DNA from: Methanosarcinales archaeon
Lineage (GTDB): Archaea > Halobacteriota > Methanosarcinia > Methanosarcinales > Methanocomedenaceae
Direction of reading: 5' to 3'
Assembly: GCA_030627385.1 (NCBI GenBank)
Contig: DAOUSF010000001.1
Location: 12,077 to 76,076, forward strand
DNA length: 64,000 nucleotides
Shown in pieces: positions 1 through 33,043 of this stretch. Under the pieces are notes generated by a model. That model made no database searches, was not told the origin of the DNA, and worked only from the letters and a program-made list of their open reading frames with translations. The translations under genes and the position numbers were made by a program. Every line of letters starts with the position of its first letter. Positions within the stretch are counted from its first letter, which is position 1.

Positions 1-59
1 CCTGAAGATAGACTGGACACAAAATTGTCAAGTTCCTCTTCCAGATCATCTATGGCCAT
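1..59 (-). CDS. hypothetical protein, N-terminal fragment (continues past window start)
   Basis: Minus-strand ATG at 59-57 opens MAIDDLEEELDNFVSSLSS with no stop before the window edge. It lies directly downstream of the 84..242 minus-strand ORF. Confidence 0.25.
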   Translation of the reverse strand, partial: MAIDDLEEELDNFVSSLSS

Positions 60-83
60 TGCTTTGAACTCTTTAATTTTCCA

Positions 84-242
84 TTAAAAAATCACTAACT
101 GTTCGTCTTCAACACCTATGATTATATCCTGATTAATATCCATCACTCCAGCACTGATATCAATGCAATCTATTTCAGGATCTTGTACGTCATTGTTTTC
201 CAATACTTCATCAACCATTATTTTAAATTCTGACCATTTCAT
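84..242 (-). CDS. hypothetical small acidic protein (52 aa)
   Basis: Minus-strand ORF MKWSEFKIMVDEVLENNDVQDPEIDCIDISAGVMDINQDIIIGVEDEQLVIF with GGAGA about 5 nt upstream of the ATG. Too short to appear in the ORF track. Confidence 0.4.
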   Translation of the reverse strand: MKWSEFKIMVDEVLENNDVQDPEIDCIDISAGVMDINQDIIIGVEDEQLVIF

Positions 243-273
243 ATTATCTCCAGTTATCTTCGGTTATCTTCTT

Positions 274-855
274 TTACGCCTTTGTATGGCTCATTATCAT
301 CTGGTAAATAGAGTGATCTTCCATTTCAAGTGCATCCTCTATCATAAGCTCGGTAACAAAATCAGATAATCCTTTACCTGTATCGTGATCCCAATCATTA
401 AGGCTCCTGTATACAAAACGTGTTACCATTTCCTTTATGGTATCCTCTTTGACAGGCAGTCCTTCTTCAATCAAGCTCACTACCTGTTCGGGATCTGATT
501 TAAGAGGTGTTCTGTATAGTATCCATATAGCAATGATATTCTTCTTTATGGTCAAAGATGTTACAATGCCTCTTGGTAGACGGACTGATATTTTGATATG
601 TTGGGAAGTGGGCAAGGACTTAACAAGAGTGCTTTGAACAGTGGAGCCGGTGGAGCCCGTGGAGCCCTGAAGGTCTGGTGGTGCGGAGTCTTGATTGTAT
701 TGCTCCTTGAAACCCTTTTTATAGTCCGACTGTTCTGGGACAGGTGAAGTGGCAATGGTCTTAACAATGGTCTTAACAACCTTCTTACGGTTGTTTGCAC
801 GGCTGACTGGGTTTTGGAATTCAAACTTGTTTTGGAGATTGTTGATACTGTTCAT
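274..855 (-). CDS. hypothetical protein; possible ribbon-helix-helix-like DNA binder
   Basis: 193-aa minus-strand ORF with AAGGAAGG upstream. It contains a GSTGSTGST repeat, and the ISVRLPRGIVTSL segment resembles an RHH beta-strand. It abuts the large non-coding region. Confidence 0.55.
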   Translation of the reverse strand: MNSINNLQNKFEFQNPVSRANNRKKVVKTIVKTIATSPVPEQSDYKKGFKEQYNQDSAPPDLQGSTGSTGSTVQSTLVKSLPTSQHIKISVRLPRGIVTSLTIKKNIIAIWILYRTPLKSDPEQVVSLIEEGLPVKEDTIKEMVTRFVYRSLNDWDHDTGKGLSDFVTELMIEDALEMEDHSIYQMIMSHTKA

Positions 856-961
856 AGGTGCCCTTCCTTGTTAGTTGTGTCTGGTCATACAATACATAAG
901 ATAGACGGCTTTAATTGGTTTGTCAAGAACTTTTTTATAATCATACTACGCAGGGGTCCAA

Positions 962-1050
962 TTCAGTATAGCGAAATAGGCGCGGTACAGAGGTCGGGAT
1001 ACAGCTTTCAGTATTCAGTGGTTCAGTGTGGAGTGGTTGCGGGGTTCAGT
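962..1050. repeat. cluster of five TTCAGT motifs
   Basis: TTCAGT occurs at 962, 1007, 1014, 1022 and 1045, all in the same orientation. Confidence 0.5.
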
Positions 1051-1189
1051 ACTACATGGGACGGGATCTTATGATACTACTTAGGGGTTGGTAAATATTT
1101 ATGATGTGAGAAAGGGCCCCCGGCCATTTTCAGAAAAGGGGTTCCCGCCGCCTTTGGTGATATCATTGTTATCCTCAGTGAACAACCGT

Positions 1190-1451
1190 GGCAGGATGTA
1201 TATATCGTTGGCAGGATGTATACATTGTTTGCCTAATAATAACAATGTTCTGCCCATGATAACAATGTTTATTCTCCTATAACGTTGTTCTGCCTATGAT
1301 GCATGTGTTTATCCTATGATAACATTGTTTAGCCTATAGTTACATTGTTTAACCTATGATAACATTGTTCATCCTATGAGGCATACGTGTAGCCTACGCC
1401 ACTCATGTATAGCCTATGAGGCATACGTGTAGCCCATGATAACATTGTTAT
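1190..1451. repeat. tandem array of about 13 x 20-bp iterons (candidate replication origin)
   Basis: The units read GGCAGGATGTATAYAYYGTT x2, then (G/T)CCYATGATAACAWTGTTYA and GCCTATGAGGCATACGTGTA variants. The 20-bp period is strict and there are no spacers. Confidence 0.85.
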
Positions 1452-1699
1452 TGTATAGTGAACGCCGTTCGGTAGGTGATAGTGTTGTTATTACGATATA
1501 AACAAGGATCTACGATATGAATGGCATACCATCCTGTGTGGGCGTCTATGCAAGTACCGTGCTAAGGCGTATATTTCCTGCCCTTGATATAAGACGCTTT
1601 ATGGGTGATATAAGAGCGGTATATGAGGGACAGGACCACTCACCCAGGCAAAGTCTGAATCTCAATATTCGGTTTTTATCCTATGATATCGGTACTTTA

Positions 1700-1910
1700 T
1701 ATAGGCAGGTTTAGTATAGGCTTATATATCGGTAGGTTACAGTGATTTAGGCAAAGTCAAGGAAATAATGCGGTTTCTATCATATGGCTGAATATTTGTG
1801 GCCGGACTTATATCAAGGCAGACTTATATTGTTAGGCAGGCATAACTATAAGGCGAGGACGGATGTGGCAGATATCGAGGCACGGACTGAGGCAGATATG
1901 ATCCGGCATA
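1700..1910. repeat. dispersed GGCAG/TAGGC short-repeat cluster
   Basis: Examples are aaGGCAGactta, taGGCAGgcata, gtGGCAGatatc, gaGGCACggact and gaGGCAGatatg, spaced about 10-14 bp apart. TAGGCA and TAGGCT copies occur at 1706-1750. Confidence 0.5.
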
Positions 1911-1958
1911 TTTGAGTCAATCAAACGACAATAAAACGCCGTACAAGACAAATCCTTG

Positions 1959-2040
1959 CTGTTTTTACGCTGTTTTAGTGTATTGCGTATATAATCGCCG
2001 GCATTTGATATAAACAGCGTTTAAATAGCACTAAAAACGA
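1959..2040. repeat. copy of the intergenic inverted-repeat / ATAGCACTAAAAACG element
   Basis: ACGCTGTTTTA (1967) pairs with TAAACAGCGT (2011) and is followed by ATAGCACTAAAAACG (2025). The same core occurs at about 5574 and 29336. Confidence 0.5.
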
Positions 2041-2230
2041 TTATTAATGAATATGGCGCGGATATTGCTTAAAATAACAATGTTATCGGTAAAAAAACAA
2101 TGTTAATTAGGCAAAACAGCGTTATTTGCACTCCAATAGCGGTATTTCAACATTTATTTTGCCCTGTAAATAGCCGTATTCATTACATTATTTGAGAAAA
2201 CGCCGCAAATCGCCGCATATGTATGCTAAT

Positions 2231-2260
2231 ATTATGTATTATTATGTATTATTATGTATA
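2231..2260. repeat. 3 x 10-bp tandem repeat ATTATGTATT
   Basis: attatgtatt attatgtatt attatgtata, read directly from the sequence. Confidence 0.8.
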
Positions 2261-2271
2261 AAGCAATTGAC

Positions 2272-2365
2272 AGTGCCTATTCATGGCACTCTTGACTGAT
2301 AATTTATTTTCATTTATCTTTCAGGGTGGGCACTAATTGCCTATCATGGGCACTTAATTGCCTAT
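2272..2365 (+). promoter_or_regulatory. candidate promoter with GGCACT operator sites
   Basis: The palindrome AGTGCC-N7-GGCACT (2272-2290) abuts TTGACT (2292-2297), followed by a 17-nt spacer and TATCTT (2315-2320). Two direct repeats GGGCACT(T)AATTGCCTAT lie at 2328 and 2348. Confidence 0.35.
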
Positions 2366-2629
2366 AACGGAGTTTTACTGCTATCCGGTTCTATTATAGA
2401 TTGAAATCGAACAACAAACGGGACGGCGCATCTGGCGCAACAGGCAACAAAGTAAACGCCGACGCAGGCAACAACATGCACCGCATATGAGGCAGCGGGT
2501 TATGATCTTTGAAAATTTGTAAAATCGGACGTAAAGGCGGGACGCCATTTGGGATGCTCGGAAGAGTTCTTAAAAATCAAGGAAAGTGGTTGATCCAGGA
2601 AAACAAGCCAGTCCGTAGGTGCTATATAG

Positions 2630-3060
2630 AATCGAAGGAAGGTAGGCGCCTTGAAGGAACATAAAAAAAGATTAATTACAAAAACGTAGGTTTTAAGGAA
2701 AAGGTTAAAATAGGACTTAAAGCGTAGGTTTTTGTGCTTAATAACTGATAAAAAAGGAGATTTAAAATGAATTTATGCAAATTGATAGGATACGGACTTG
2801 TTTGGGGAACGGCAGTAAACGTGGCAATTATTTTGATTCTGGCTGGGATGTAATACAAGAAATTCAGGAGAACATGAGAAAAAATGGCTATTTTTAGCCC
2901 AATCCATGTCGACCAAAGGCAGAGTAAGCGATCCAGCAGAGTATAGCCTAATAGGAAATATTGTAGGATAGGCTTATCTTATATAATCTTATAGCTTTTT
3001 TTTAATGAAGGTATAATGAAGGTAGGTTGTATATACAAGGTAGGATGGTAAAGATAATGA
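2630..3060. repeat. dispersed (A/C)GTAGG(T) motif cluster
   Basis: Copies include gaaGGTAGGcg 2640, acGTAGGtttt 2686, gcGTAGGtttt 2733, tGTAGGatagg 2962, gaaGGTAGGttg 3027 and caaGGTAGGatgg 3046. Confidence 0.45.
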
Positions 3061-3115
3061 GGATAAGGCGGTCTTGTTCTTAATAGTCATATAATCGAAT
3101 GAAAAGGAGTAAATC

Positions 3116-3625
3116 ATGGGAAATCTTAAGGATGTTGTAACTGTTGATTGTAAGTCATTTGGCAAAAAAAGTGCTAATTTTAAAAAATGTTTGACCTGTG
3201 AGGATGAGGTGAAGAAGGCCTGCCAGGATGCTTTTATTGCATTAAGTGCCGAAAAAACTGAAGTAAAAGGAACTGAAGTAAAAGAAATTACCAATAATCA
3301 GGAGAATCAAAAGAATCAGGAGATTAAAACAATGAAAAACTTGAAAAATTCCACAAATTCAACAACTGCCGCAACAAATGCAAAAATTGGAAAAGCCCAG
3401 ATGGTTAAGGATATGATCTTTAGCCTCGCAAGAAAAGCCGAATATACTCGGAAAGAATTGGGACAGGCTATTCAAGCTTCCTTTCCTGAGTATAAAAATT
3501 CTACTTTGTCCACTTATATCTCTGATTCGTTTAATGTGAAATATGCAGGAGTTACAGGATGTGGCGCCCATCGGATGTTGTCATATGTCCAGACTGGCAA
3601 GAAAAAAATCATAGTAGTAAGATAA
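3116..3625 (+). CDS. hypothetical protein; C-terminal domain paralogous to the 32379..32948 protein (putative DNA-binding)
   Basis: RBS AAAGGAG. The C-terminus ...YTRKELGQAIQASFPEYKNSTLSTYISDSFNVKY aligns with ...HTKKEIVDEVAPKFPDVTVSTISTFVQDCMNVKY of the 32379 ORF. Confidence 0.7.
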   Translation: MGNLKDVVTVDCKSFGKKSANFKKCLTCEDEVKKACQDAFIALSAEKTEVKGTEVKEITNNQENQKNQEIKTMKNLKNSTNSTTAATNAKIGKAQMVKDMIFSLARKAEYTRKELGQAIQASFPEYKNSTLSTYISDSFNVKYAGVTGCGAHRMLSYVQTGKKKIIVVR

Positions 3626-3637
3626 AATGAACAGGTG

Positions 3638-3680
3638 GGAAGGGCGTCGGTTGTGATGGCGTCCTTCCTCTTAGGTTTCA
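3638..3680 (+). terminator. stem-loop terminator candidate
   Basis: GGAAGGGCGTC (3638-3648) pairs with GGCGTCCTTCC (3658-3668). A T-rich stretch follows, 13 nt after the stop codon at 3625. Confidence 0.5.
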
Positions 3681-3756
3681 TTGTTTTAAGTGTTTATATG
3701 GGTTCTGAAATATTCAGGACGGATATAAGTATTTAAACAATAAAAGGAGATATAAA

Positions 3757-3948
3757 ATGGAAAAAATAACTATTAAGAAGATCGGTCCCTTTACGGATAC
3801 GGAATGTCCTAATGGGCAAAAAGAGTACAATATTTCCGGAGCTGAAAAAATTGTAATGGCTGGATCAGGAACCTGCAGGCGCTGTAAATATTATACTTTT
3901 TTACCTCTGGCAGGAGCGGATACTTTCGGTTGTACTTTCAAATCCTAA
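3757..3948 (+). CDS. hypothetical protein (63 aa, Cys-containing)
   Basis: RBS AAAGGAGA; co-oriented ORF. Confidence 0.5.
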   Translation: MEKITIKKIGPFTDTECPNGQKEYNISGAEKIVMAGSGTCRRCKYYTFLPLAGADTFGCTFKS

Positions 3949-4143
3949 AACGGATCGTAATATCAAGAAAAGGGGGTTGGTTTGAGGACATTTTTGGCAA
4001 TAATTGTGGTGCCTTTCTTGAAAGTATCTGGCTGGAGATTCGGCAAGGATTTCAGGAATGCGGATAGTGGTTGGAAGTTGGTTGTTTATTCGTGTATCAA
4101 TACAGTCCAGGCGAATATCTGGGCAAATTAAAAGGAGATAGAT

Positions 4144-4401
4144 ATGGACCCGAGAATGGAAGAAATTTACGGAAATCCGGATATCGGAATGGAGTGGATT
4201 GGTGAGGCTATTTGTGTGGAACCTGAGATTGAAGTGGAAGAGGATGATTCGGAAAAGGATCTTGTTTGTCTGTTTAAAGGGTGTACGCCAATTAATTCCT
4301 TGCTTGCAAAAATGCAAGAGGATGCGGAGGCTATGACGGCAGAGGAAAGGGAAGTTTATTTTGACGATCTTGACCAGGCCATTGTCCGTCTATGTGATTA
4401 A
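4144..4401 (+). CDS. hypothetical acidic protein
   Basis: RBS AAAGGAGA; 85 aa, rich in E and D. Confidence 0.55.
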   Translation: MDPRMEEIYGNPDIGMEWIGEAICVEPEIEVEEDDSEKDLVCLFKGCTPINSLLAKMQEDAEAMTAEEREVYFDDLDQAIVRLCD

Positions 4402-4461
4402 TTTGATTAAAATCGAAAATGGGTTTAGGAATCCTATTATAAGAAAAGGGGGTTAATTTTT

Positions 4462-4761
4462 ATGAGGAATGGAACAAAGTTTTATCGGACTTCTGGCGGC
4501 AAAAATATCAGGATGAAGGAGCTGGTTTTCCGTGGGGAGAATCTTGCAATTTGTCCGGCCTGTGGAAGTGGGAATGCCATGTTGTCTGGGAGCCGAAAAA
4601 CCAGTGCCACAACGGTTTGCGATTCCTATAAATGCAGGGATTGTGGATTCAAGGTGGATGATCAGGATGCTGTCAAGATTTATACCGAATTGGATAAGCC
4701 CGGAATGGGCAATAATAGCACCTATTCGGAAGTGAGGCGGGCCATTGGTCTTGGAAATTAA
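4462..4761 (+). CDS. hypothetical zinc-ribbon protein
   Basis: RBS AAGGGGG; CPACG...CRDCG Cys pairs. Confidence 0.55.
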   Translation: MRNGTKFYRTSGGKNIRMKELVFRGENLAICPACGSGNAMLSGSRKTSATTVCDSYKCRDCGFKVDDQDAVKIYTELDKPGMGNNSTYSEVRRAIGLGN

Positions 4762-4765
4762 TTCA

Positions 4766-4812
4766 TTATCAGGTGATATAATTCGAGGATTGTGTCGCCG
4801 AATAAGGTGTTA
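4766..4812 (+). ncRNA. conserved intergenic hairpin element, copy 1
   Basis: ttatcaGGTGATAtaattcgaggattgTGTCGCCgaataaggtgttaa. The stem GGUGAUA/UGUCGCC includes G-U pairs. It shares loop and flanks with copies at 6066 and 7052. Confidence 0.55.
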
Positions 4813-4863
4813 ATTTGTTAATTTATAAAGGAAATATAAATTGTTTATAACAGGAGGAAGCCA

Positions 4864-5019
4864 ATGAAATGGTTTTCAATTATTTGTTGGGCAATAGGTA
4901 TTGGTACGTATATCCATATCTATTCAATTCATACGAAAAATACAGATTATCCGACCTTCTTGGAGTTCTGTGGAATGACAATCAAGGCTGTATTTGAAAA
5001 ATGGTTTATGTTCTCATAA
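4864..5019 (+). CDS. hypothetical small membrane protein (51 aa)
   Basis: RBS AGGAGGAA. The hydrophobic N-terminus reads MKWFSIICWAIGIGTYIHIY. Below the ORF-track length cutoff. Confidence 0.45.
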   Translation: MKWFSIICWAIGIGTYIHIYSIHTKNTDYPTFLEFCGMTIKAVFEKWFMFS

Positions 5020-5040
5020 TGAAAAAAAGGGGGTTATTAA

Positions 5041-5238
5041 ATGGGCAAGAAAATTGACCATCGTCCTTACCGGACAAACTCTCCTGGGATATTTATTATC
5101 CAGGATGTGGAGTTAATTGAAACCACTGGTTGTGATAGTGATTATGTGATAAGGTTGAAATGTGGTGATGATCATTATTACCGTTGTTCCTGTGCTATCA
5201 CATTTGAAAAGTCAGGTAAATTTCTAACTATAAAATAA
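5041..5238 (+). CDS. hypothetical protein
   Basis: RBS AAGGGGG; 65 aa. Confidence 0.5.
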   Translation: MGKKIDHRPYRTNSPGIFIIQDVELIETTGCDSDYVIRLKCGDDHYYRCSCAITFEKSGKFLTIK

Positions 5239-5251
5239 GGGGGGGTCAAAA

Positions 5252-5524
5252 ATGTATGAGGATTGTCAATTACCAGAAGATTATAAACCATTGCCTGAGT
5301 GGGTTTCGGGGTGGGGATGGTCTGACCAAAGGAATCATGAAACGTGGTATCTGTTTGATACAATGCCTACCGACTGGATAGAAATTGGGGATTACCATAT
5401 CTGGGTCGATTTCCACATGTCCGCCAGACTCGTTCTTTTCCACGAAAAAAAGATGAGGAAGGAAATGAAGGCTTTTGAGGAATACCGAGACCTGATGGGT
5501 GAACTCCACGGAAGGAATTATTAG
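5252..5524 (+). CDS. hypothetical protein
   Basis: RBS AAGGGGGGG; 90 aa. Confidence 0.55.
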   Translation: MYEDCQLPEDYKPLPEWVSGWGWSDQRNHETWYLFDTMPTDWIEIGDYHIWVDFHMSARLVLFHEKKMRKEMKAFEEYRDLMGELHGRNY

Positions 5525-5540
5525 GAAGATCGTTTTAATT

Positions 5541-5610
5541 GCTGTTTTAAGCGGCTTTTTTAATACTGATATCATAGTACTAAAAAACTTTAAAAAGCCG
5601 TTAAAACAGC
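5541..5610. repeat. long inverted repeat with ATCATAGTACTAAAAA core
   Basis: GCTGTTTTAAGCGGCTTTTT (5541-5560) pairs with AAAAAGCCGTTAAAACAGC (5592-5610). The loop carries tatcatagtactaaaaa. Confidence 0.6.
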
Positions 5611-5681
5611 AAGGTTTTGACTCACAATTGATGGGTTTAATTAATATTGATCTATAAAGCAGAACAAAGGGAGATTTAAAA

Positions 5682-6014
5682 ATGGCAGAAGGAATTATCA
5701 TGGGCAGAATGGACAAGGATTTGATTGATCATGGAATCCTGGCTGAAGGAGAGGTTGACAATGCCTCTCATGGAATAATCTTATTGAACCAATGGGCAAT
5801 TCCACACTTTGATTGGGCCATAATAGTCAGAATAGGAGCGGTAAAAGTAAGTAAGACTACCTCAGAATACCTAATTGGAAGATTGAAGGAACTTTTGCCT
5901 GATCAAACTCGGGAAGTAATGATGCTCTGGCTAAACTATGGGTGGTCAATCAAAGAGGACATGCCTGATTGGCAGTGCTGGATTGACTTTTCCAAAATTG
6001 ATTATAAATCGTAA
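5682..6014 (+). CDS. hypothetical protein
   Basis: RBS AAGGGAGA; 110 aa. Confidence 0.55.
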   Translation: MAEGIIMGRMDKDLIDHGILAEGEVDNASHGIILLNQWAIPHFDWAIIVRIGAVKVSKTTSEYLIGRLKELLPDQTREVMMLWLNYGWSIKEDMPDWQCWIDFSKIDYKS

Positions 6015-6065
6015 ACCTAAATTAAGGGGGTATACCAAAAGGAAAACTATATAAGTTAAGGATTC

Positions 6066-6112
6066 TTATCAGGTAGCATAAATTGAGGTTTGTGCTACCG
6101 AATAAGGTGTTA
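6066..6112 (+). ncRNA. conserved intergenic hairpin element, copy 2
   Basis: ttatcaGGTAGCAtaaattgaggtttgTGCTACCgaataaggtgttaa. The 7-bp stem is perfect and its sequence covaries relative to copies 1 and 3. Confidence 0.55.
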
Positions 6113-6132
6113 ACTTTAAAAAGGAGGATGTT

Positions 6133-6357
6133 ATGGTTTCATTTCCAGGAATGAAAGGAATGATAAAGAGGAAGACTTCTTTTTACGACAGGGAGTTGCA
6201 AGGACTGGTACCAAAAAAGGGTATTAAACCTGAGATCAAGATCAAACTGGCAAATGAGGATAATAAATCCACTAAATGGATGAACCTTAATCTTGATAGT
6301 ATTGAGAGCCTCCAGGCTTTCATTGACATAATCAAGGAAGACTTAGAAGGAGAGTAA
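6133..6357 (+). CDS. hypothetical protein
   Basis: RBS AAAGGAGGA; 74 aa. Confidence 0.55.
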   Translation: MVSFPGMKGMIKRKTSFYDRELQGLVPKKGIKPEIKIKLANEDNKSTKWMNLNLDSIESLQAFIDIIKEDLEGE

Positions 6358-6545
6358 TGGCAGACGTATTCAAGGAATTAGAGGAGACTCATTCCCAAGG
6401 AGTTATCAGTATTGAAACCGTTCCTGATATTGGTGTTATGAATGGTGATCTGGGAATCCAAATTGCACCCGATGGCCGTGTTTGGGTGTGCATTAATGGT
6501 ATAGCATTCCTTAGGTTTAATCCAAATGTCAAATTGAAGGAGTAA
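6357..6545 (+). CDS. hypothetical protein
   Basis: RBS GAAGGAGAG. The start overlaps the previous stop (TAATG). Confidence 0.5.
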   Translation: MADVFKELEETHSQGVISIETVPDIGVMNGDLGIQIAPDGRVWVCINGIAFLRFNPNVKLKE

Positions 6546-6723
6546 AAATTGCATATCTTCAAATTATTGAGGTGGTTATATTCTTATAGGTACCCCGTGG
6601 TGCCCCCAATTAAGGTTATGAATATCAAACCTAAAACAGGCATCTTGAATCGTAAACCAAATACCAATATCAAACAACCCACAAGTAGGGCAGGGTTTAA
6701 AAGAGGAAACAGGAGAAATTAAG

Positions 6724-7047
6724 ATGGAAAAACTGTTCGGAATGCAGAAGATGGAAAACATGACTGACCTTGAGTTTGCAAAATATCTCAAGGCTAAGGA
6801 TCCAAATTGGACTTGGGATTCAATTAATGACTTTAACAGGTTCATGGCACATGGGAAGGTGGTTGCTGTTGTCAAGTACCATAACAGCTATCCCGTTGGA
6901 AGAGTGATCTGGGTTGAAATTGAAAAGAAAGTCAAGAAGGAACGAGAAAAGACAAATACGGACGGGTGTCCTGAATGTGGAAGACCTTTAAAGATGGTGG
7001 CAAGTGGAGTCAGGTGTGATGGTTGTGGGTATGCATTCTGTTTTTAA
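6724..7047 (+). CDS. hypothetical protein with C-terminal zinc ribbon
   Basis: RBS ACAGGAGA; CPECG...CDGCG. Confidence 0.55.
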   Translation: MEKLFGMQKMENMTDLEFAKYLKAKDPNWTWDSINDFNRFMAHGKVVAVVKYHNSYPVGRVIWVEIEKKVKKEREKTNTDGCPECGRPLKMVASGVRCDGCGYAFCF

Positions 7048-7051
7048 TTAA

Positions 7052-7098
7052 TTATAAGGTGATATGATTTAAGGATCGTATCGCCGAATAAGGAATTA
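7052..7098 (+). ncRNA. conserved intergenic hairpin element, copy 3
   Basis: ttataaGGTGATAtgatttaaggatcgTATCGCCgaataaggaattaa. Confidence 0.55.
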
Positions 7099-7119
7099 AA
7101 TTATATTTTTTAAAGGATA

Positions 7120-7148
7120 TTGACTATTACGTTTTTTTATGTAATAAT
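7120..7148 (+). promoter_or_regulatory. class-1 phage promoter, copy a
   Basis: TTGACT-17 nt-(TGT)AATAAT followed by GTGTATG. It belongs to a five-member near-identical family, consensus TTGACTTTTAYGT...TTATGTAATAATGTGTATA. Confidence 0.7.
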
Positions 7149-7197
7149 GTGTATGTAGGATGAAGTTTGAGTAACCGCTCATAAAAAGGAGGCAAAT

Positions 7198-8361
7198 ATG
7201 CCCACCTATGAAGCAAAGGTAAGTGATTACAAGTGGACCAAATTCAAAAAAAAGTTCAAGGATTACAAAAAGAGGGCTGAAAAACTTGGCTTTCCTGAAC
7301 CTACTTACAAGATCATCAAAGATTTTGGAGAGCCTGCAAAGGGTTGTACTCCTCTTTCCCATGTTTATCGTTTCAGGATTCTTGAAATTACCTATGAAAT
7401 GCCGATCATTGATGGCTGGGAAGTAGTAGGAAACAGAGAGAGAATTGACGGGAAAATCTTTACCAACGTAGTAACGGGTGATGATTGCACTAACTTTCAT
7501 AAATCAGATCTAATAGGGTGCGGTCATTGCCATACAAATCGGTATAGGAACAAGTCAATCTTGCTGAAAAACAAAGTAGATACCATTATGGAAGTTGGAT
7601 CTACATGTGTAATTGACTTTTTTGGACACAAAGTAACCAACCTTGATTGGTTCGTGGAAAGGCTCTTTGAAGGTAATGAGTGGAGCAACGTCGGCGGTGG
7701 AACATATAGTTTCAATCTTGAGCAGGTTCTTGAATATGCATCATTCTATATACGAAAATTCGGCTATCAAAAGGCCAGCGGAGAAGGTGAAGGAACATAC
7801 AATACCAAAGAAAGAGTTTGGGATTGTCACCTTGAACCTCATTTCAGGAGTACACAATTTATCAAACCTGATGTGTCCGTGGAAGATGAAAAAATGGCTC
7901 TTGATACGATATGTCACTGGAAGGGGATGAATGCTGAGGAGAATTACTCCAATTCATATATTACCAATCTGATAAAAATTTCCCAGGAAGAAACAATGAA
8001 TCCCAAATTACTTGGGTATGCAGTATCAATGGCATCCTCTTATCAAATGTATCTGGAAAAAAGGGCCGCAATGAATGCTCGTATTCAGCTTTCCAAATAT
8101 CAAGGACAGATCAAAGACAGAATAAAGGGTGTTCCTGTCAAGCTGACATTCAAGAAGGGATGGGAAACAATGTTCGGATGGACTGACCTGATGTCATTCA
8201 CTGACCTTGATGGAAACGTGTATGTCACATTCTATAAAGGAACAAAGTCAACTCCCGAACAAGGACAGAACATTGTACTTGATGGCACCATTGTTGATCA
8301 TACGGAATATAAAAACGTGGAACAAACAATCGTTAACAGAATAGCCTGGAGGAAAGTTTAA
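7198..8361 (+). CDS. hypothetical protein (387 aa) with Cys/His cluster and OB-fold-like C-terminus
   Basis: RBS AAAGGAGG. It has a GCGHCHTNRYRN...GSTCVIDFFG segment. The OB-like reading of the C-terminus GVPVKLTFKKGW...NIVLDGTIVDH is only an impression. Confidence 0.7.
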   Translation: MPTYEAKVSDYKWTKFKKKFKDYKKRAEKLGFPEPTYKIIKDFGEPAKGCTPLSHVYRFRILEITYEMPIIDGWEVVGNRERIDGKIFTNVVTGDDCTNFHKSDLIGCGHCHTNRYRNKSILLKNKVDTIMEVGSTCVIDFFGHKVTNLDWFVERLFEGNEWSNVGGGTYSFNLEQVLEYASFYIRKFGYQKASGEGEGTYNTKERVWDCHLEPHFRSTQFIKPDVSVEDEKMALDTICHWKGMNAEENYSNSYITNLIKISQEETMNPKLLGYAVSMASSYQMYLEKRAAMNARIQLSKYQGQIKDRIKGVPVKLTFKKGWETMFGWTDLMSFTDLDGNVYVTFYKGTKSTPEQGQNIVLDGTIVDHTEYKNVEQTIVNRIAWRKV

Positions 8362-10224: not shown

Positions 10225-10254
10225 TTGACAGGTTACGTATTTTTATGTAATAAT
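10225..10254 (+). promoter_or_regulatory. class-1 phage promoter, copy b
   Basis: TTGACA-18 nt-(TGT)AATAAT followed by GTGTATAG. Confidence 0.7.
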
Positions 10255-12051: not shown

Positions 12052-12077
12052 GGTTCGCTGTATTTTGTCTATTTTAG

Positions 12078-12126
12078 ATCGTTTTGAATTGTTTGATAGT
12101 ATGACATTCAAATAATTCAAAACGAT
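12078..12126. repeat. perfect 13-bp inverted repeat with GATAGTATGACA loop
   Basis: ATCGTTTTGAATT (12078-12090) pairs with AATTCAAAACGAT (12114-12126). It is related to the 5541, 14703 and 29330 elements. Confidence 0.6.
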
Positions 12127-12172
12127 GTAAAAGTGACAAGGTTTCAACTCAAAATCGAAAGGATATAACATT

Positions 12173-13021: not shown

Positions 13022-13197
13022 AATTTAGGATTAATAGTGCCAGGAAAATTGATCCCAAATATAACATATTTACATCTGGCATAGAATTGCCTGGATAATT
13101 AACGAACACGTAAAGGAGGAGTGAATGAATTGGACGATCAGAAGAATAAACCCTAATTGGGGGAGGGGGTGTTTCGCTCCCTCTCCCGGAGATTCCT

Positions 13198-14336: not shown

Positions 14337-14365
14337 TTGACTTTTACGTTTTTTTATGTAATAAT
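14337..14365 (+). promoter_or_regulatory. class-1 phage promoter, copy c
   Basis: TTGACT-17 nt-(TGT)AATAAT followed by GTGTATAC. Confidence 0.7.
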
Positions 14366-17427: not shown

Positions 17428-17456
17428 TTGACTTTTATGTAAAATTATGTAATAAT
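17428..17456 (+). promoter_or_regulatory. class-1 phage promoter, copy d
   Basis: TTGACT-17 nt-(TGT)AATAAT followed by GTGTATAT. Confidence 0.7.
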
Positions 17457-18252: not shown

Positions 18253-18452
18253 TGGATTTTATTATAACGGGACTTATTTATTGGATATTCAATATCTTTT
18301 GTCCCAAAAATCCTGTGCAGAAAAATGTCCAGTCACATAAACCAGTAAACGAATGGGGTTATTTCATCTTTAGTGAGGAACGGGGTTGTAATCAATCAGA
18401 TAATGATCCGTTCCTCAATGAAGATTACAACGAAGGGGGGCCTGATTGGTAA
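18252..18452 (+). CDS. hypothetical protein
   Basis: 66 aa; TAATG coupling. Confidence 0.45.
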   Translation: MDFIITGLIYWIFNIFCPKNPVQKNVQSHKPVNEWGYFIFSEERGCNQSDNDPFLNEDYNEGGPDW

Positions 18453-20549: not shown

Positions 20550-20726
20550 ATGAGCCTAAATGAAGAGTATCACCTGGAGACGGGATTGCATTCCCATTAT
20601 TTGGCAAAGGGAGGATCACACAAATACGGAACAAAAGGGTTAATATACACCCGTAAATATGTTTGGTGGTTGGAACTAAAAATTAAAAAACTCAGAAAAG
20701 AAAAACAGGATAAAAACAATTCTTGA
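20550..20726 (+). CDS. hypothetical protein (58 aa)
   Basis: ATG coupled (TAAATG) to the stop of the relic helicase end. Confidence 0.4.
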   Translation: MSLNEEYHLETGLHSHYLAKGGSHKYGTKGLIYTRKYVWWLELKIKKLRKEKQDKNNS

Positions 20727-20751
20727 CTTTTATGTAAAATTATGTAAGAAT
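20723..20751 (+). promoter_or_regulatory. class-1 phage promoter, copy e
   Basis: TTGACT-17 nt-(TGT)AAGAAT followed by ATGTATAG. Confidence 0.65.
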
Positions 20752-30443: not shown

Positions 30444-31556
30444 ATGAAAGCATCCATAACTAATGTAATAAAATTTGAGACCGCTCACCAGTTGACTGAC
30501 TCTTACTCTGAGGAAGATAATACCTATACTTGCCCTGTGTGTAATAAGGAAGGAATAAAAAGCATATTTTCTCATTGCAGTAATACAGGTGATAGTGTTC
30601 ATTTAAACTGGATACAAAAATTAAACGATGAAATAAATGAAGAAATTGACAATCTTTTTCCTGATTATATGCAAATGGAAATAAATTTGAAATTGCAGGA
30701 GATTTTACCCACCCTGTCTCCTAATATTATTGCAAATAAGATCAGAAGCAGAGCAAAGGAAACAGGTATAAATACCAGAAAAGTATTAGGGAAATGTAGA
30801 ACTGGGTTAAATAATCCTGTACATACGAAAGGAACAAAGGATAAAATATCTAAATCAGTCAAGAAGAAGTGGGAAGAAGGTTCTTATTCAGATAGAATAA
30901 ATGGAATGCAAGGGAAATTAGGGCCTTTATCAGGAAGATACGATCCATCAATTCATACCATAGAACATAAAGGTCTATATTATTTTAATTCTTTTTTATC
31001 TGAATTTCAAGATATTTCAGTGTGTTCAAGATGTAAGGGTGTTGAAAATAAAATTAATGTACACCACATTGACGAGGACCATAAAAACTTTCTACCGTCA
31101 AATCTTGAGCCCTTGTGTGTGCTCTGTCATATGTCCAATCACTACAAACAAGTTAAGAAGCCATTCGTTACTATAGGAAAAGAATTTACATTTGCGGCGG
31201 CACATCAATTACCAAACCACCAAGGGATGTGTCAATATCTCCATGGACATGAATGGAAGCTTAGAATTGAGTTGAAAAAGAGGGTAGATTTTAAAACAGG
31301 AATGGTAATGGACTTTTCTGATTTGAAAAAAATAGTGAAGGAGCATGTAATATCTATACTTGATCATAACACCTTAAATGAGATAATATATAATCCGACA
31401 GCCGAGAATATCCTAATATGGATCTGGGAAAAACTAATGTTTGAAGGCCTGCTCAAGGGAATTTATAAAATTCATTTATGGGAATCATCCGATAGTGTAG
31501 CAGTACTTGACCAGAAAGGGATGTTATCCGTTTTTACTGAAAAAGGAGTAAAATAA
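30444..31556 (+). CDS. queD: HNH/NUMOD endonuclease module fused in frame to 6-carboxytetrahydropterin synthase QueD
   Basis: Residues about 240-370 form a full QueD (EFTFAAAHQLPNHQGMCQYLHGHEW, LDHNTLNE, PTAENI). Residues 18-239 carry NUMOD3-like GLNNPVHTKGTKDKISKS and HNH NVHHIDEDHKN...CVLCH. Residues 1-17 repeat the QueD start (VIKFETAHQL). Confidence 0.8.
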   Translation: MKASITNVIKFETAHQLTDSYSEEDNTYTCPVCNKEGIKSIFSHCSNTGDSVHLNWIQKLNDEINEEIDNLFPDYMQMEINLKLQEILPTLSPNIIANKIRSRAKETGINTRKVLGKCRTGLNNPVHTKGTKDKISKSVKKKWEEGSYSDRINGMQGKLGPLSGRYDPSIHTIEHKGLYYFNSFLSEFQDISVCSRCKGVENKINVHHIDEDHKNFLPSNLEPLCVLCHMSNHYKQVKKPFVTIGKEFTFAAAHQLPNHQGMCQYLHGHEWKLRIELKKRVDFKTGMVMDFSDLKKIVKEHVISILDHNTLNEIIYNPTAENILIWIWEKLMFEGLLKGIYKIHLWESSDSVAVLDQKGMLSVFTEKGVK

Positions 31557-32215
31557 TGTTTGTAGCTGATATATTTGAATCATTCCACGGAGAAGTGAAT
31601 GGACATCACCAAGGACGAATTGTCACATTCATACGCCTCTCTGGATGTAATCTTAGATGTTCCTATTGTGATACCAAAGAAACATGGGATAAACTTTATG
31701 GGGAAAATCTTAGCCCTCTTCTAATCCTTAACAGAGTTAAAGAATTAGGACATAAACACGTTTGTATTACAGGTGGCGAGCCTTTACTGGATAAGGCGGC
31801 AGTACTGGATTTAATGCATATATTATCAGAGGAAGGGTATCGCATATCCGTTGAAACAAATGGCACTATCAGTATCACTCCTTTTGTTAGATTTGTGGAT
31901 AGCTTTATTATTGATTGGAAAATACCCCCCAGACCGTTTAAAGGAAAGAATCTATTCCTTGAATCTAATTTGGTAAATTTAAGGAATACAGATATTATCA
32001 AGTTTGTGGTTATGGATGAAGATGATGTTATACTGGGAATAAAACTAACGGAAATAATTATCAGAGACAAATATAAATCAAATACTCTGGTTGCTTTTTC
32101 TCCTATTATTTCAGAAGATTTTTTACCAAAGCACTTAGCAAACGCATTGCTTTACCATAAAGCTAAAAACTGTATTTTATCTGTCCAGATTCATAAACTT
32201 ATTGATTTCAAATAA
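31556..32215 (+). CDS. queE: 7-carboxy-7-deazaguanine synthase QueE (radical SAM)
   Basis: FIRLSGCNLRCSYCDT radical-SAM cluster motif and ITGGEPLL. The start is coupled to the queD stop. Confidence 0.85.
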   Translation: MFVADIFESFHGEVNGHHQGRIVTFIRLSGCNLRCSYCDTKETWDKLYGENLSPLLILNRVKELGHKHVCITGGEPLLDKAAVLDLMHILSEEGYRISVETNGTISITPFVRFVDSFIIDWKIPPRPFKGKNLFLESNLVNLRNTDIIKFVVMDEDDVILGIKLTEIIIRDKYKSNTLVAFSPIISEDFLPKHLANALLYHKAKNCILSVQIHKLIDFK

Positions 32216-32279
32216 TGGTCCTGTGCAACATGCCGATATTACACGGATTTAATCTTAATGATTTTTTATTAAAAAGTGC

Positions 32280-32308
32280 TTGACTTCTCATTCATTTTTC
32301 ATTAAGAT
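32280..32308 (+). promoter_or_regulatory. class-2 promoter, copy f
   Basis: TTGACT-17 nt-TAAGAT, preceded by the A/T tract attttttattaaaaagtgc. Confidence 0.55.
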
Positions 32309-32378
32309 GTATTTAAATTGTTCAAGAGTGAAAAAGCAGTTCAAGAGTAAATTTAATTAATTTTTAAGGAGAAAGAAA

Positions 32379-32948
32379 ATGGCAAAACTGACAGACGCCC
32401 AGAAAGCAGAAATGGCAAAATTAAAAGCGATTCCCAATGATTTGATGAAATTATCCATTGCATCCCTCAATACCTTCTTGACCAGCAAGGAAAAAGACAA
32501 AATGCCCAAAGCAAAATCCAAGGGCGAAGCCGTAAAACTTTTTACCGATGCAATTGCAGGCCTGCTTGAAGCTGACCTGGGTGAAGAAATTCCGGAAGAT
32601 GTTGCAACTTTTTATAACGACCATGTTGTGGGTGACGATGCAGAGGCTGGTGATACAGGTGCTGATGATGGAAAAGCCGCCCCCAAGCCCAAAGCTGACA
32701 AGACCAAAACAACCAAACCCCGGAAAACCAAAGCGGAAATACAAGCCCGGTATGATGCAATCTCTGCCATGATCGTCACAGGTAAACATACCAAAAAGGA
32801 AATCGTGGATGAAGTTGCTCCCAAGTTTCCGGATGTCACGGTCAGCACCATCTCCACATTTGTGCAGGACTGTATGAATGTTAAATACAACAAATTGCCC
32901 AAGTTGACGGTTAAGGCCGAAGACGGAAAACTCTCCTTCGCCAAATAG
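32379..32948 (+). CDS. Lys/Ala-rich putative DNA-binding protein (paralog of the 3116..3625 C-domain)
   Basis: RBS AAGGAGAAAG. Central AAPKPKADKTKTTKPRKTK tract. The C-domain is shared with the 3116 ORF. The gene has its own promoter and terminator. Confidence 0.75.
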   Translation: MAKLTDAQKAEMAKLKAIPNDLMKLSIASLNTFLTSKEKDKMPKAKSKGEAVKLFTDAIAGLLEADLGEEIPEDVATFYNDHVVGDDAEAGDTGADDGKAAPKPKADKTKTTKPRKTKAEIQARYDAISAMIVTGKHTKKEIVDEVAPKFPDVTVSTISTFVQDCMNVKYNKLPKLTVKAEDGKLSFAK

Positions 32949-33028: not shown

Positions 33029-33043
33029 CAAAAGGAAAACGAT

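What the first reader, a model, noticed from the sequence alone, without database searches (positions are those of the whole stretch)
4766..7098. Three copies of a roughly 47-nt intergenic hairpin with compensatory stem changes
The elements at 4766, 6066 and 7052 share their flanks (TTAT(C/A)AGG ... GAATAAGG(T/A)) and a loop (AATT-GAGG-TTG). The 7-bp stem differs, GGTGATA/TATCGCC versus GGTAGCA/TGCTACC, but pairing is preserved. That covariation is direct evidence of selection on structure. Each copy sits just after a stop codon in the early region and lacks a U-tract. They look less like simple terminators and more like RNA-processing or stability sites (compare RNase III sites between T7 early genes) or a binding site for a phage RNA- or DNA-binding protein.
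Basis: partly seen in the sequence, partly recalled or inferred. Interest (0 to 1): 0.6.

Follow-up and report, generated by a model that had tools for sequence, protein, structure and literature searches.

The report
Conserved hairpins between phage early genes
Three copies of a conserved, roughly 60-nt folded RNA sit between the early genes of an uncultured phage, are kept in its relatives, and most likely mark where the early messenger RNA is cut or stabilised, as at the RNase III sites of phage T7; this is a new RNA motif of a familiar kind.

Summary
The three copies (TTAT starts at 4766, 6066 and 7052) are the only ones in about 77 kb scanned. Each is a 58-64-nt three-helix hairpin on the + (mRNA) strand: P0 (5-9 bp, whose 5' arm holds the upstream UAA), P1 (UUAU/AUAA), a conserved 2x2 loop (CA or AA opposite GA), a 12-bp covarying P2, and an apical YRAG-G(A) motif that resembles a Shine-Dalgarno (SD) sequence.

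About 17% of the paired cells are G-U, and the minus strand folds much worse, so selection acts on + strand RNA.

Related metagenomic phages carry structure-preserving copies at the same gene junctions. RNAalifold predicts 25 pairs, 9 of them with compensatory changes. Divergent versions keep the architecture, the CA/GA loop, UAAGG and the apical AGG.

There is no Rfam match. No copy was found in cultured phages, IMG/VR, JGI metagenomes or GTDB genomes.

The architecture and location match T7 early RNase III sites, which I folded for comparison, but there is no sequence homology. None of the three is an intrinsic terminator, and only copy 3 precedes a promoter.

Best guess (0.4): host RNase III processing and mRNA-stability sites. 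Main rival: a binding site for 30S subunits, CsrA or a phage protein at the conserved purine motifs. The function is untested. This is a new motif of a known kind, of moderate interest.

The parts
4755..4816 (+). Copy 1, whole element. P0 4755-4762/4809-4816 (contains the UAA stop 4759-4761 of ORF 4462-4761). P1 4766-4769/4802-4805. 2x2 loop CA 4770-4771 / GA 4800-4801. P2 4772-4783/4788-4799. Loop CGAG 4784-4787.
   Evidence: Fold: dG -20.8 kcal/mol, z -5.1; minus strand -5.6. Covariance-model score 77.2 bits. ORF end.
6053..6116 (+). Copy 2, whole element. P0 6053-6059/6110-6116. P1 6064-6069/6102-6107. 2x2 loop CA 6070-6071 / GA 6100-6101. P2 6072-6083/6088-6099. Loop UGAG 6084-6087. The SD and ATG of ORF 6133-6357 follow about 8-17 nt after P0.
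   Evidence: Fold: dG -25.8, z -6.1. Covariance-model score 76.1 bits. The 5' arm of P0 matches the last codons and stop of L017 gene 4671-5012.
7043..7100 (+). Copy 3, whole element. P0 7043-7049/7094-7100 (contains the UAA stop 7045-7047 of ORF 6724-7047). P1 7052-7055/7088-7091. 2x2 loop AA 7056-7057 / GA 7086-7087. P2 7058-7069/7074-7085. Loop UAAG 7070-7073.
   Evidence: Fold: dG -22.0, z -6.7. Covariance-model score 76.4 bits.
7120..7148 (+). Sigma70-type promoter (TTGACT, 17-nt spacer, TG-extended AATAAT) just downstream of copy 3. Copy 3 therefore lies at the 3' end of the upstream transcription unit, not in the leader of the promoter-proximal transcript of gene 7198-8361.
   Evidence: It belongs to a repeated promoter family (10225, 14337, 17428, 20723), none of whose other copies is preceded by the hairpin.
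6015..6052 (+). Non-coding remnant upstream of copy 2. From about 6037 it is homologous to the 3' end of a 113-aa gene that is present in relative L017 and lost here. Only the part that feeds into P0 is kept.
   Evidence: blastn: window 6037-6353 matches L017 4990-5261. Sequences.

Best explanation
The elements act in cis on the + strand early mRNA, at the junctions between cistrons.

Shown:
- Each folds into a coaxial P0-P1-P2 stack of 23-27 bp with two internal loops.
- The fold is kept by compensatory change within the genome and in related phages.
- It is tied to the 3' end of the upstream cistron: the stop codon lies inside P0, while the distance to the next start codon varies from about 17 to 100 nt.

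Inferred: host RNase III recognises this dsRNA-like helix and cuts at or next to the conserved CA/GA internal loop, 12 bp below the apical loop. This is what happens at T7 R0.3-R1.3, where the cut lies 3-4 nt 3' of a 9-13-bp upper stem. Cutting would split the polycistronic early transcript into segments. The upstream message would end in the stable 12-bp P2 hairpin, which protects it from 3' exonucleases. The downstream message would begin with the invariant AAUAAGGUG (SD-like) tail, a few nucleotides ahead of the real SD. In a host with RNase J that tail could act as a ribosome-bound 5' stabiliser, as reported for the B. subtilis RNase III sites in SP82 early RNA.

Also inferred: a ribosome terminating at the UAA inside P0 would melt P0 and P1 but not P2, so cleavage would compete with translation of the upstream cistron.
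For: RNA on the + strand:
- Three copies have 100% pairing and 5 compensatory pairs.
- Eight copies from three phages are 97% paired, with 0 of 500 shuffles as good and 12 double-change cells.
- An independent RNAalifold run returns P0+P1+P2 with 25 pairs, 9 of them compensatory.
- In P0 the first pair outside UUAA/UUAA is paired in 10 of 10 copies, as AU, GC or UA.
- There are 25 G-U cells among 143.
- The + strand folds at -20.8, -25.8 and -22.0 kcal/mol (z -5.1 to -6.7) against -5.6, -18.4 and -11.2 for the minus strand.

Conservation:
- Copies lie at orthologous junctions in L017 and L021, and a divergent one in L022.
- They are 88-90% identical where the flanking genes are 66-70% identical.

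Placement: only in the early rightward block, 3 copies in 2.4 kb. None occurs in the other 61 kb of the window or in 13 kb of leftward late genes.

Not terminators: no U-tract, and the terminator scan does not call them.

T7 comparison: the five T7 early sites fold into a 9-13-bp upper stem, an internal loop and a lower stem, in intercistronic positions just upstream of the next SD (site coordinates are from memory of Dunn & Studier 1983).

SP82 early RNA is a documented target of B. subtilis RNase III (Panganiban & Whiteley 1983 and Mitra & Bechhofer 1994, as cited in PMC4838370).
Against: - There are no transcript-end data and the host is unknown, so cleavage is pure inference.
- RNase III does not need a specific apical loop. 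Yet AGG is invariant at the apex (GGA in 10 of 11 copies), even in divergent copies whose stems are entirely different. This points to an additional or different ligand.
- P1, the CA/GA loop and the UAAGGUGUUAA tail are more sequence-constrained than a helix-measuring nuclease would require.
- The covariance model finds no homology with the T7 sites.
- Part of the sequence conservation may come from concerted evolution among copies. Stems are more alike within a genome than between orthologous copies in L021.
Confidence: 0.4

Rival explanations
1. The hairpin is a binding site for a trans-acting factor that reads the conserved purine motifs. The factor could be the 30S subunit (through the anti-SD), a CsrA-type GGA-binding protein, or a small early protein specific to this phage clade. 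In this view the long P2 helix is a rigid spacer of about one helical turn. It presents the apical YRAGG(A) and the basal CA/GA + UAAGG module on one face. Binding would control translation of the next cistron or block exonucleases, without any endonucleolytic cut (a STAB-SD-like or standby-site mechanism).
For: - The apical AGG is invariant in all 11 copies, and GGA is present in 10 of 11. This includes L022 and the type-B variants, whose stems share no sequence.
- The closing U-G pair is invariant (8 of 8) and never covaries to C-G.
- The loops UAAGGAU and CAAGGAU resemble the CsrA SELEX consensus RUACARGGAUGU.
- The distance from the apical GGA to the downstream SD (about 30-45 nt) lies within the 10-63-nt bridging range of CsrA (PMC7652899).
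- The distance from the CA loop to the AGG is 14-16 nt in all variants.
Against: - In the minimum-free-energy fold only the first G of GGA is unpaired, at the top of a 12-bp stem. High-affinity CsrA sites have GGA in the loop of hairpins with 4 bp or fewer.
- Copy 2 has GGU rather than GGA.
- Copy 3 is separated from the next gene by a promoter, so it cannot regulate translation of the main downstream transcript.
- No RNA-binding protein is recognisable among the window's genes.
- The downstream SDs are already strong and unstructured.
Confidence: 0.27
2. The hairpin is a passive stability and insulation element. It simply blocks 3'-to-5' (and, in some hosts, 5'-to-3') exonucleases at cistron boundaries. 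This would give segmental stability to the early polycistronic mRNA, as REP elements and the stable intercistronic hairpins of T4 do, with no specific nuclease or binder.
For: - The hairpins are stable (-21 to -26 kcal/mol) and lie immediately after stop codons.
- Other, unrelated hairpins occupy other early intergenic gaps: 3637-3669, 5541-5610 and 12066-12137.
Against: A passive barrier needs only stability. It does not explain the invariant internal loop, the P1 sequence, the apical AGG, the constant 12-bp P2, or the survival of these features in diverged copies.
Confidence: 0.15
3. The hairpin is a transcriptional signal. It could be a U-tract-less terminator or attenuator, a pause site, or a nut/put-like site that loads an antitermination factor onto RNA polymerase in the early operon.
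For: - It lies in the early operon, on the transcribed strand, directly after cistrons, as lambda nutR follows cro (knowledge from memory).
- An intrinsic-terminator-like hairpin lies between copies 1 and 2, at 5541-5555 followed by U6.
- Copy 3 and its orthologue end a transcription unit ahead of a promoter.
Against: - No U-tract follows P2 or P0, and the basal helices are AU-rich.
- There are three sites in 2.4 kb rather than one per operon.
- The structure bears no resemblance to boxB (5-bp stem with a GNRA-like pentaloop) or to put RNAs.
- No boxA-like element lies 5' of the hairpin.
Confidence: 0.08
4. The element acts at the DNA level. It could be a linker for homologous recombination that shuffles early gene cassettes (like PeSL or integron attC sites), a hairpin promoter or origin extruded from DNA (like the N4 early promoters), or an operator for a dimeric DNA-binding protein.
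For: - Gene content between the hairpins differs among the window, L017 and L021.
- Stems are more alike within a genome than between some orthologous copies, which suggests gene conversion.
- PeSLs are stem-loop plus promoter units between ORFan early genes of T4-like phages (PMC2839356, PMC4122927).
Against: - All imperfections in the palindrome are G-U-compatible on the + strand only. The minus strand, which is the template strand that would form an N4-type hairpin, has A-C mismatches.
- The half-sites covary instead of being conserved.
- Only copy 3 has an adjacent promoter.
- The one indel I mapped (window 6014-6037 against L017 4674-4990) is not bounded by two elements.
- No integrase or recombinase was found among ORFs of 120 aa or more.
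Confidence: 0.05

Closest known systems
RNase III processing sites of the phage T7 early region (R0.3, R0.5, R1, R1.1, R1.3)
   Same: - Several paralogous copies of a 50-60-nt irregular hairpin lie between the cistrons of an early operon transcribed by the host RNA polymerase, on the mRNA strand.
- An upper stem of 9-13 bp (here 12) sits above a conserved internal loop and a lower stem.
- The flanks and loop are conserved while the upper stem covaries.
- The next gene's SD lies a few nucleotides downstream.
- By eye, the 3' side of T7 R1 (CCUGAAU^AGGU) resembles CCGAAUAAGGU here. This is a lead only.
   Different: - There is no detectable homology: the covariance model scores 9.7 bits or less on T7, and the MAFFT alignment is not meaningful.
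- The internal loop here is a symmetric 2x2 (CA/GA) rather than asymmetric.
- There is a third, outer helix that contains the upstream stop codon.
- The apical loop carries an invariant SD-like AGG(A), whereas the T7 loops vary.
- Cleavage has not been tested here.
[quoted passage not shown] 1995); STAB-SD of cryIIIA
   Same: - Repeated, similar hairpins in phage early mRNA.
- An SD-like purine tract that would lie at or near the 5' end of the downstream product.
- The window has strong SDs, 38% G+C and a TRTG-type -16 element in its promoters. These fit a low-GC Gram-positive-like host, but this is inference.
   Different: The references are known to me only through citation lists and from memory.
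- The host of this phage is unknown.
PeSL (promoter-early stem-loop) cassettes of T4-like phages
   Same: [quoted passage not shown]
- Copy 3 followed by promoter 7120-7148 looks like one such unit.
- Gene content between elements varies among relatives (PMC2839356, PMC4122927).
   Different: - PeSLs are composite units of terminator plus sigma70 promoter, with G/C-rich stems. Here copies 1 and 2 have no promoter, and there are only about 20 nt to the next start codon at copy 2.
- The stems here are AU-rich with G-U pairs.
- The repeated promoter family occurs without the hairpin at four other places.
- The indel I mapped is not bounded by elements.
CsrA/RsmA binding hairpins (GGA in a loop)
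   Same: - An apical RAGGA motif is present in 10 of 11 copies.
- A second purine motif lies 30-45 nt downstream, at or near the SD (for the consensus and spacing).
   Different: - GGA is largely base-paired at the top of a long stable stem.
- Copy 2 lacks GGA.
- The long covarying helix and the basal module have no counterpart in CsrA sites.

Membership tests
T7-type RNase III processing site (functional class) | Intercistronic position on the mRNA strand of an early operon transcribed by the host polymerase | tested here: met
   All ORFs from 2.7 to 64 kb are on the + strand. Sigma70-type promoters are present. The elements lie between ORFs 4462-4761 and 4864-5019, 5682-6014 and 6133-6357, and 6724-7047 and 7198-8361. 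That these genes are 'early' is inferred from their position and content.
T7-type RNase III processing site (functional class) | Irregular hairpin of about two helical turns: an upper stem of about 9-13 bp, an internal loop and a lower stem | tested here: met
   P2 is 12 bp, followed by a 2x2 loop, P1 of 4-6 bp, a second loop and P0 of 5-9 bp, 23-27 bp in total. The T7 sites folded the same way.
T7-type RNase III processing site (functional class) | Specific cleavage by RNase III in vivo or in vitro | not testable with these tools
   There are no transcript-end data and the host is unknown.
T7 R-site sequence family (homology) | Sequence and structure similarity to the T7 R0.3-R1.3 consensus | tested here: not met
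   The covariance model R1, run with filters off on T7 1-8000, scores at best 9.7 bits (E 1.9), and the hits are not at hairpins. MAFFT mis-aligns the loops to the stems.
Intrinsic (Rho-independent) terminator | G+C-rich stem followed directly by a U-tract | tested here: not met
   The terminator scan calls none of the three. P2 is followed by GAAUAAGG, and P0 is AU-rich.
PeSL cassette | Every unit combines a stem-loop with a sigma70 promoter and the downstream SD | tested here: not met
   Only copy 3 precedes a promoter (7120-7148). Copy 2 ends about 17 nt before the ATG. Four other copies of the promoter have no hairpin.
PeSL cassette | Indel or replacement breakpoints between relatives fall in the elements | tested here: inconclusive
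   Gene content between elements differs among the relatives. The one deletion I mapped has one end about 16 nt upstream of copy 2's P0 and the other end at no element.
Lambda nut (boxA + boxB) | Short boxB hairpin (5-bp stem with a GNRA-like pentaloop) with boxA on its 5' side | tested here: not met
   The stem is 12 bp with a YRAG loop and there is no conserved 5' single-stranded box. The nut features are from memory.
N4-type DNA hairpin promoter or other DNA-level palindrome | Hairpin forms on the template DNA strand, or the palindrome half-sites keep their sequence | tested here: not met
   25 of 143 cells are G-U on the + strand, which means A-C on the template strand. The minus strand folds at -5.6 to -18.4 against -20.8 to -25.8 kcal/mol. 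The half-sites covary.
Integron attC | R''/R' boxes (RYYYAAC ... GTTRRRY), bottom-strand folding and an IntI integrase | tested here: not met
   The outer boxes are UUAA/UUAA and do not fit the consensus. The top strand is the one that folds. No tyrosine recombinase was found among ORFs of 120 aa or more. The attC consensus is from memory.
CsrA binding site | Single-stranded GGA in the loop of a short hairpin (4 bp or fewer), usually with a second site 10-63 nt away | tested here: inconclusive
   GGA is at the apex in 10 of 11 copies, and a downstream SD containing GGA lies at a suitable distance. However, G-A of the motif is paired in a 12-bp stem, and copy 2 has GGU.
Any Rfam 15 family | Match at the gathering score | tested here: not met
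   There are no matches at the gathering score in the window. Around the elements only chance-level miRNA and snoRNA hits appear, at E of 0.7 or more.

The most novel reading that the evidence does not exclude
The element may be a translation-sensing intercistronic switch of a kind not yet described. The basal helices P0 and P1 contain the upstream stop codon, so each terminating ribosome melts them. The 12-bp P2 survives and displays an SD-like or GGA apical motif exactly one helical turn above a conserved CA/GA + UAAGG module. A specific ligand (a 30S subunit, CsrA, or a clade-specific early phage protein) would read both modules. Its binding would set whether the downstream cistron is translated, cut off or degraded, so that the fate of each early message depends on translation of the one before it.
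Probability: 0.15. Interest if true: 0.65.

Novelty: new member of a known kind. Interest (0 to 1): 0.4.

Why it matters
How phages split and stabilise their early polycistronic transcripts is known in detail only for a few model phages (T7 and T3, SP82, T4).

This finding adds a structured RNA motif supported by covariation from an uncultured phage of about 101 kb that modifies its DNA with 7-deazaguanine. The motif has a clear, testable prediction: RNase III-dependent ends at the CA/GA loop. It also has two features not seen in the T7 sites, a basal helix that contains the upstream stop codon and an invariant SD-like apex.

If cleavage is confirmed, the motif extends the T7 and SP82 strategy to an unrelated phage lineage. 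It would also give a compact (about 60 nt), portable part for cistron insulation and stabilisation.

If cleavage is absent, the conserved purine modules would point to a new RNA-protein or RNA-ribosome regulatory interaction.

The practical product is a candidate new RNA family of 11 members, ready for a covariance-model search of larger assemblies.

Tried and rejected
- Fixed-length IUPAC pattern with the wrong spacing: no hits, my own error. Replaced by regex and covariance-model searches.
- Rfam at the gathering score and at E of 10 or less: nothing relevant. tRNA and tmRNA: none.
- Cultured phages: megablast of 8 kb, blastn of the element, and tblastn of the DNA polymerase and the neighbouring 387-aa protein. 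No close relative and no element; the best protein identity is 23-28%.
- Pattern scans of IMG/VR (twice), JGI metagenomes and GTDB genomes. The 44 loci are chance matches to the imposed flanks, with covariance-model scores of 27 bits or less. The exception is L008 (36.5 bits), a single copy in a phage with no protein similarity to the window. I treat it as unconfirmed.
- Distant homologues of the 387-aa protein (27% identity; L052, L053) and a 60%-identical relative of the 74-aa protein (L056): no element. The family is confined to a narrow clade.
- A phage-encoded RNase III, RegB or RNA-binding protein: the RNase III signature regex and Pfam/PHROGs scans of about 70 ORFs found none.
- A zinc-ribbon protein always encoded upstream (an autoregulation idea): true for copies 1 and 3 only. 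Rejected.
- Stop-codon read-through, SECIS or translational bypass: in-frame stops follow within 4-8 codons, and copy 2 has no ORF ending in P0. Rejected.
- Stops in all three frames as a cassette boundary: holds for copy 1 but not copy 2. Rejected.
- tRNA T-loop mimicry: UUCGA occurs only in copy 1. Rejected.
- attC, N4 hairpin promoter, DNA operator and CRISPR-repeat mimic: rejected on strand asymmetry, length and the missing partner enzymes.
- Extending the window to the right: the chosen protein is not on record.


Full report

Yes. TTAT[CA]AGGT occurs in the 64-kb window only at 4766, 6066 and 7052, and CGAATAAGG only at 4799, 6099 and 7085, all on the + strand. The three 51-nt stretches are 88% identical column by column.

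A covariance model built from them (R1) scores 76-77 bits (E about 1e-13) on each copy. With all filters off it finds nothing else in the window. The next hits, at about 22 bits, are the antisense strands of the same elements. A purely architectural scan (4-bp stem, 2x2 loop, 8-13-bp stem, loop) also finds only these three with the conserved flanks.

**2. What the structure really is.**

Folding shows a larger object. From the base upwards:
- P0, 5-9 bp, built around UUAA/UUAA.
- An internal loop (3x3, 4x2 or 2x2).
- P1, (UC)UUAU/AUAA(GG), 4-6 bp.
- A conserved 2x2 internal loop: CA opposite GA in copies 1 and 2, AA opposite GA in copy 3.
- P2, 12 bp.
- A 4-nt loop, CGAG, UGAG or UAAG. Its last G, together with the first stem bases, forms an invariant AGG(A).

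The whole elements are 4755-4816, 6053-6116 and 7043-7100. They fold at -20.8, -25.8 and -22.0 kcal/mol, with z-scores of -5.1 to -6.7 against dinucleotide shuffles.

The reverse strand folds at only -5.6, -18.4 and -11.2 kcal/mol. The reason is that many pairs are G-U. In eight copies, 25 of 143 paired cells are G-U, and two U-G pairs are invariant. These would be A-C mismatches on the other strand. Selection therefore acts on a single-stranded + strand molecule, and that strand is the mRNA strand of every gene from 2.7 kb onwards.

**3. Covariation.**

- Within the window, 16 of 16 pairs are 100% paired and 5 pairs change on both sides. Only 3 of 500 shuffles do as well, and slid registers give 31-58% pairing.
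- With relatives (next section), eight copies from three phages are 97% paired in P1+P2. There are 12 double-change cells, and 0 of 500 shuffles reach the observed pairing or covariation score.
- RNAalifold, run without my structure, returns P0+P1+P2 with 25 pairs, 9 of them with compensatory changes.
- For P0 I put the copies in register on the two UUAA tetramers. The first pair outside them is formed in 10 of 10 copies, as A-U (5), G-C (3) or U-A (2). Pairs further out are less regular.
- The 5' arm of P0 is the end of the upstream ORF, stop codon included (4759-4761 in copy 1, 7045-7047 in copy 3). The 3' arm therefore tracks a coding sequence.

Caveat: the sequences are related, and stems are more alike within a genome than between some orthologous copies. 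The number of independent events is thus smaller than the cell counts suggest.

**4. Relatives.**

No cultured phage is close.

The neighbouring 387-aa protein (7198-8361, phrog_2319) has only four close homologues among 5.8 billion clusters, at 89, 66, 54 and 50% identity. Their contigs gave L017-L020, L021 and L022. L016 is a near-identical copy of the window.

The model finds the following:
- In L017: copies at 2579-2632, 5016-5066 and 5955-6005.
- In L021: copies at 916-966 and 2728-2777.
- In L022: a divergent copy at 493-541 (29 bits).
- Variant 'type B' hairpins at L017 3606-3653 and L021 1674-1721.

By synteny these sit at the same gene junctions as the window's copies. Copy 2 and its L021 counterpart are 88-90% identical, while the flanking genes are 66-70% identical at the DNA level.

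The divergent copies share no stem sequence with the window. They do keep the three-helix layout, the CA/GA loop (L022, L021b), a UAAGG-like 3' arm of P1 (UAAGU in L022), the UUAA boxes (L022, L017b) and a purine apex (AAAGGAG, GGGAGG). These unpaired or sequence-specific parts are therefore under selection in their own right.

More distant relatives (L052, L053, L056) lack the element. So do 13 kb of leftward late genes next to the window (L055). Pattern scans of IMG/VR, JGI metagenomes and GTDB genomes returned only chance matches to the imposed flanks. One uncertain single copy, L008, lies in a phage with no protein similarity to the window.

**5. Context.**

The window is part of a contig of about 101 kb from an uncultured phage. 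It contains:
- a leftward gene (274-855) and, beyond the window's left end (locus L055), leftward genes that include an intein-bearing 1133-aa ORF and a DUF4055 protein;
- a 1.9-kb non-coding region with about 13 tandem 20-bp iterons;
- rightward small ORFan genes;
- replication, recombination and 7-deazaguanine modules.

A strongly conserved sigma70-type promoter (TTGACTTTTAYGT...TATGTAATAAT) recurs at 7120, 10225, 14337, 17428 and 20723.

The three elements lie within 2.4 kb of the first rightward gene block. Copies 1 and 2 are internal to transcription units, and the next SD starts about 8-12 nt after P0 at copy 2. Copy 3 ends a unit and is followed by the 7120 promoter. The distance to the upstream stop is fixed, because the stop is inside P0, whereas the distance to the next start codon ranges from about 17 to about 100 nt.

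At copy 2 the upstream gene seen in L017 (4671-5012) has been deleted in the window. Its last roughly 25 nt, which run into the 5' arm of P0, are retained.

No RNase III, RegB or recognisable RNA-binding protein is encoded in the window.

**6. Mechanism.**

Shown: this is a conserved RNA structure on the early mRNA, tied to cistron ends, with no U-tract. The terminator scan does not call it.

Inferred: the stacked 23-27-bp helix, with a 12-bp upper stem above a conserved internal loop, is the layout of the T7 early RNase III sites. I folded the five T7 sites from NC_001604. Each has a 9-13-bp upper stem, an internal loop and a lower stem, lies between cistrons, and is cut 3-4 nt 3' of the upper stem. 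The site coordinates 890, 1468, 3138, 5887 and 6448 are from my memory of Dunn & Studier 1983, and they fall in the 3' side of the internal loop as expected.

By analogy, host RNase III would cut at or beside the CA/GA loop. That would leave P2 as a 3' protective hairpin on the upstream message. The downstream message would begin with the SD-like AAUAAGGUG tail. B. subtilis RNase III sites in SP82 early RNA are the Gram-positive precedent (references in PMC4838370). The adjacent polypurine 5' stabiliser (Hue et al. 1995) and STAB-SD are known to me from reference lists and from memory.

A terminating ribosome would open P0 and P1 but not P2. This follows from the geometry and is untested.

**7. 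What this does not explain.**

RNase III does not need a particular apical loop, and the T7 loops vary. Here AGG is invariant and GGA is present in 10 of 11 copies. The closing U-G pair never becomes C-G. The AGG lies 14-16 nt from the CA loop in every variant.

The apex resembles both an SD and the CsrA consensus RUACARGGAUGU. A second GGA-containing site, the real SD, lies within CsrA's 10-63-nt bridging range (PMC7652899). Against CsrA, most of the GGA is paired at the top of a long stable stem, and copy 2 has GGU.

A ligand that reads the purine motifs (a 30S subunit, CsrA or a phage protein) is therefore the main rival. It could also act together with RNase III.

**8. Other rivals.**

- Passive exonuclease barrier: does not explain the sequence constraints.
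- Terminator or antiterminator site: no U-tract and no resemblance to boxA/boxB.
- DNA-level roles (PeSL-like recombination linker, attC, N4-type hairpin promoter, operator): argued against by the strand-specific G-U pattern, the covarying half-sites, the absence of a promoter at copies 1 and 2, and an indel that is not bounded by elements (PeSL definition from PMC2839356 and PMC4122927).

**9. Novelty and verdict.**

There is no Rfam family and no homology to the T7 sites. This is a new, small RNA family: 8 close members plus 3 divergent ones, in four metagenomic phages.

It belongs to a known functional kind, the intercistronic processing or stability hairpins of phage early operons. Two features are unusual: the stop codon lies inside the basal helix, and the apex is an invariant SD-like motif.

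Interest is moderate (0.4). The finding is solid and testable, but it would not surprise a specialist unless the ligand-binding or translation-sensing reading turns out to be true.

Noticed in passing
window 1189-1460 (scattered copies at 1672 and 2068): About 13 tandem 20-bp iteron-like repeats (consensus near CCTATGATAACATTGTT). They lie in a 1.9-kb non-coding region between the leftward gene 274-855 and the first rightward genes. This looks like an origin, a partition site or a packaging-related site.
   Followed up: partly
window 7120-7148, 10225-10254, 14337-14365, 17428-17456, 20723-20751 (weaker at 32280-32308): A family of nearly identical sigma70-type promoters, TTGACTTTTAYGT..TTTATGTAATAATGTGTAT, with a TRTG/TG extended -10. 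The 7120 copy is 100% identical over 34 nt to L017 9003-9036. The promoters are conserved more strongly than the genes they drive.
   Followed up: partly
window 30444-36699: A complete 7-deazaguanine (preQ0/preQ1) DNA-modification cluster: a QueD-like protein with an HNH domain, QueE (radical SAM), QueC, FolE, QueF and a DpdA/TGT-like transglycosylase.
   Followed up: partly
window 5541-5610: A long inverted repeat containing two opposed terminator-like hairpins (GCUGUUUUAAGCGGC followed by U6 on the + strand, with a mirror image on the minus strand). It lies between copies 1 and 2 and is followed by a possible promoter (TTGACT at 5617). It probably splits the early block into two transcription units.
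   Followed up: partly
window 12066-12137; also 3637-3669, 13157-13189, 18357-18428, 46453-46524 and 52291-52362: Other strong intergenic hairpins unrelated to the family. These include a perfect 19-bp AU-rich hairpin (-31 kcal/mol) at 12066-12137 and a 13-bp G+C-rich hairpin at 3637-3669 that lacks a proper U-tract.
   Followed up: no
L017 3606-3653 and L021 1674-1721: A second 'type B' hairpin in the relatives. It has the same three-helix layout and UAAGG tail but a different stem and a UUGGGAGG loop, and it follows an orthologous 102-aa gene. The window lacks both that gene and the hairpin, yet keeps the conserved sequence that follows the hairpin (window 4411-4474).
   Followed up: partly
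L055 5816-9217 (leftward of the window start, same phage): An 1133-aa ORF with faint or weak Hint/intein and LAGLIDADG hits, next to a DUF4055 protein. It may be an intein-containing terminase or another structural-module protein.
   Followed up: no
window 47388-47930 and L055 11001-11534: Two HNH_3 + AP2-domain ORFs (homing-endonuclease-like) in the same phage, one in the replication module and one in the late module.
   Followed up: no
L008 2388-2438 (IMGVR_UViG_3300045988_133256): A single hairpin in a phage with no protein similarity to the window. It has the same UUUAUCAGG...CCGAAUAAGG frame, the CA/GA loop and a position between a stop codon and an SD, but a different stem and no AGG apex (36.5 bits). 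It could be convergence, a distant homologue, or a chance match favoured by the search pattern.
   Followed up: partly
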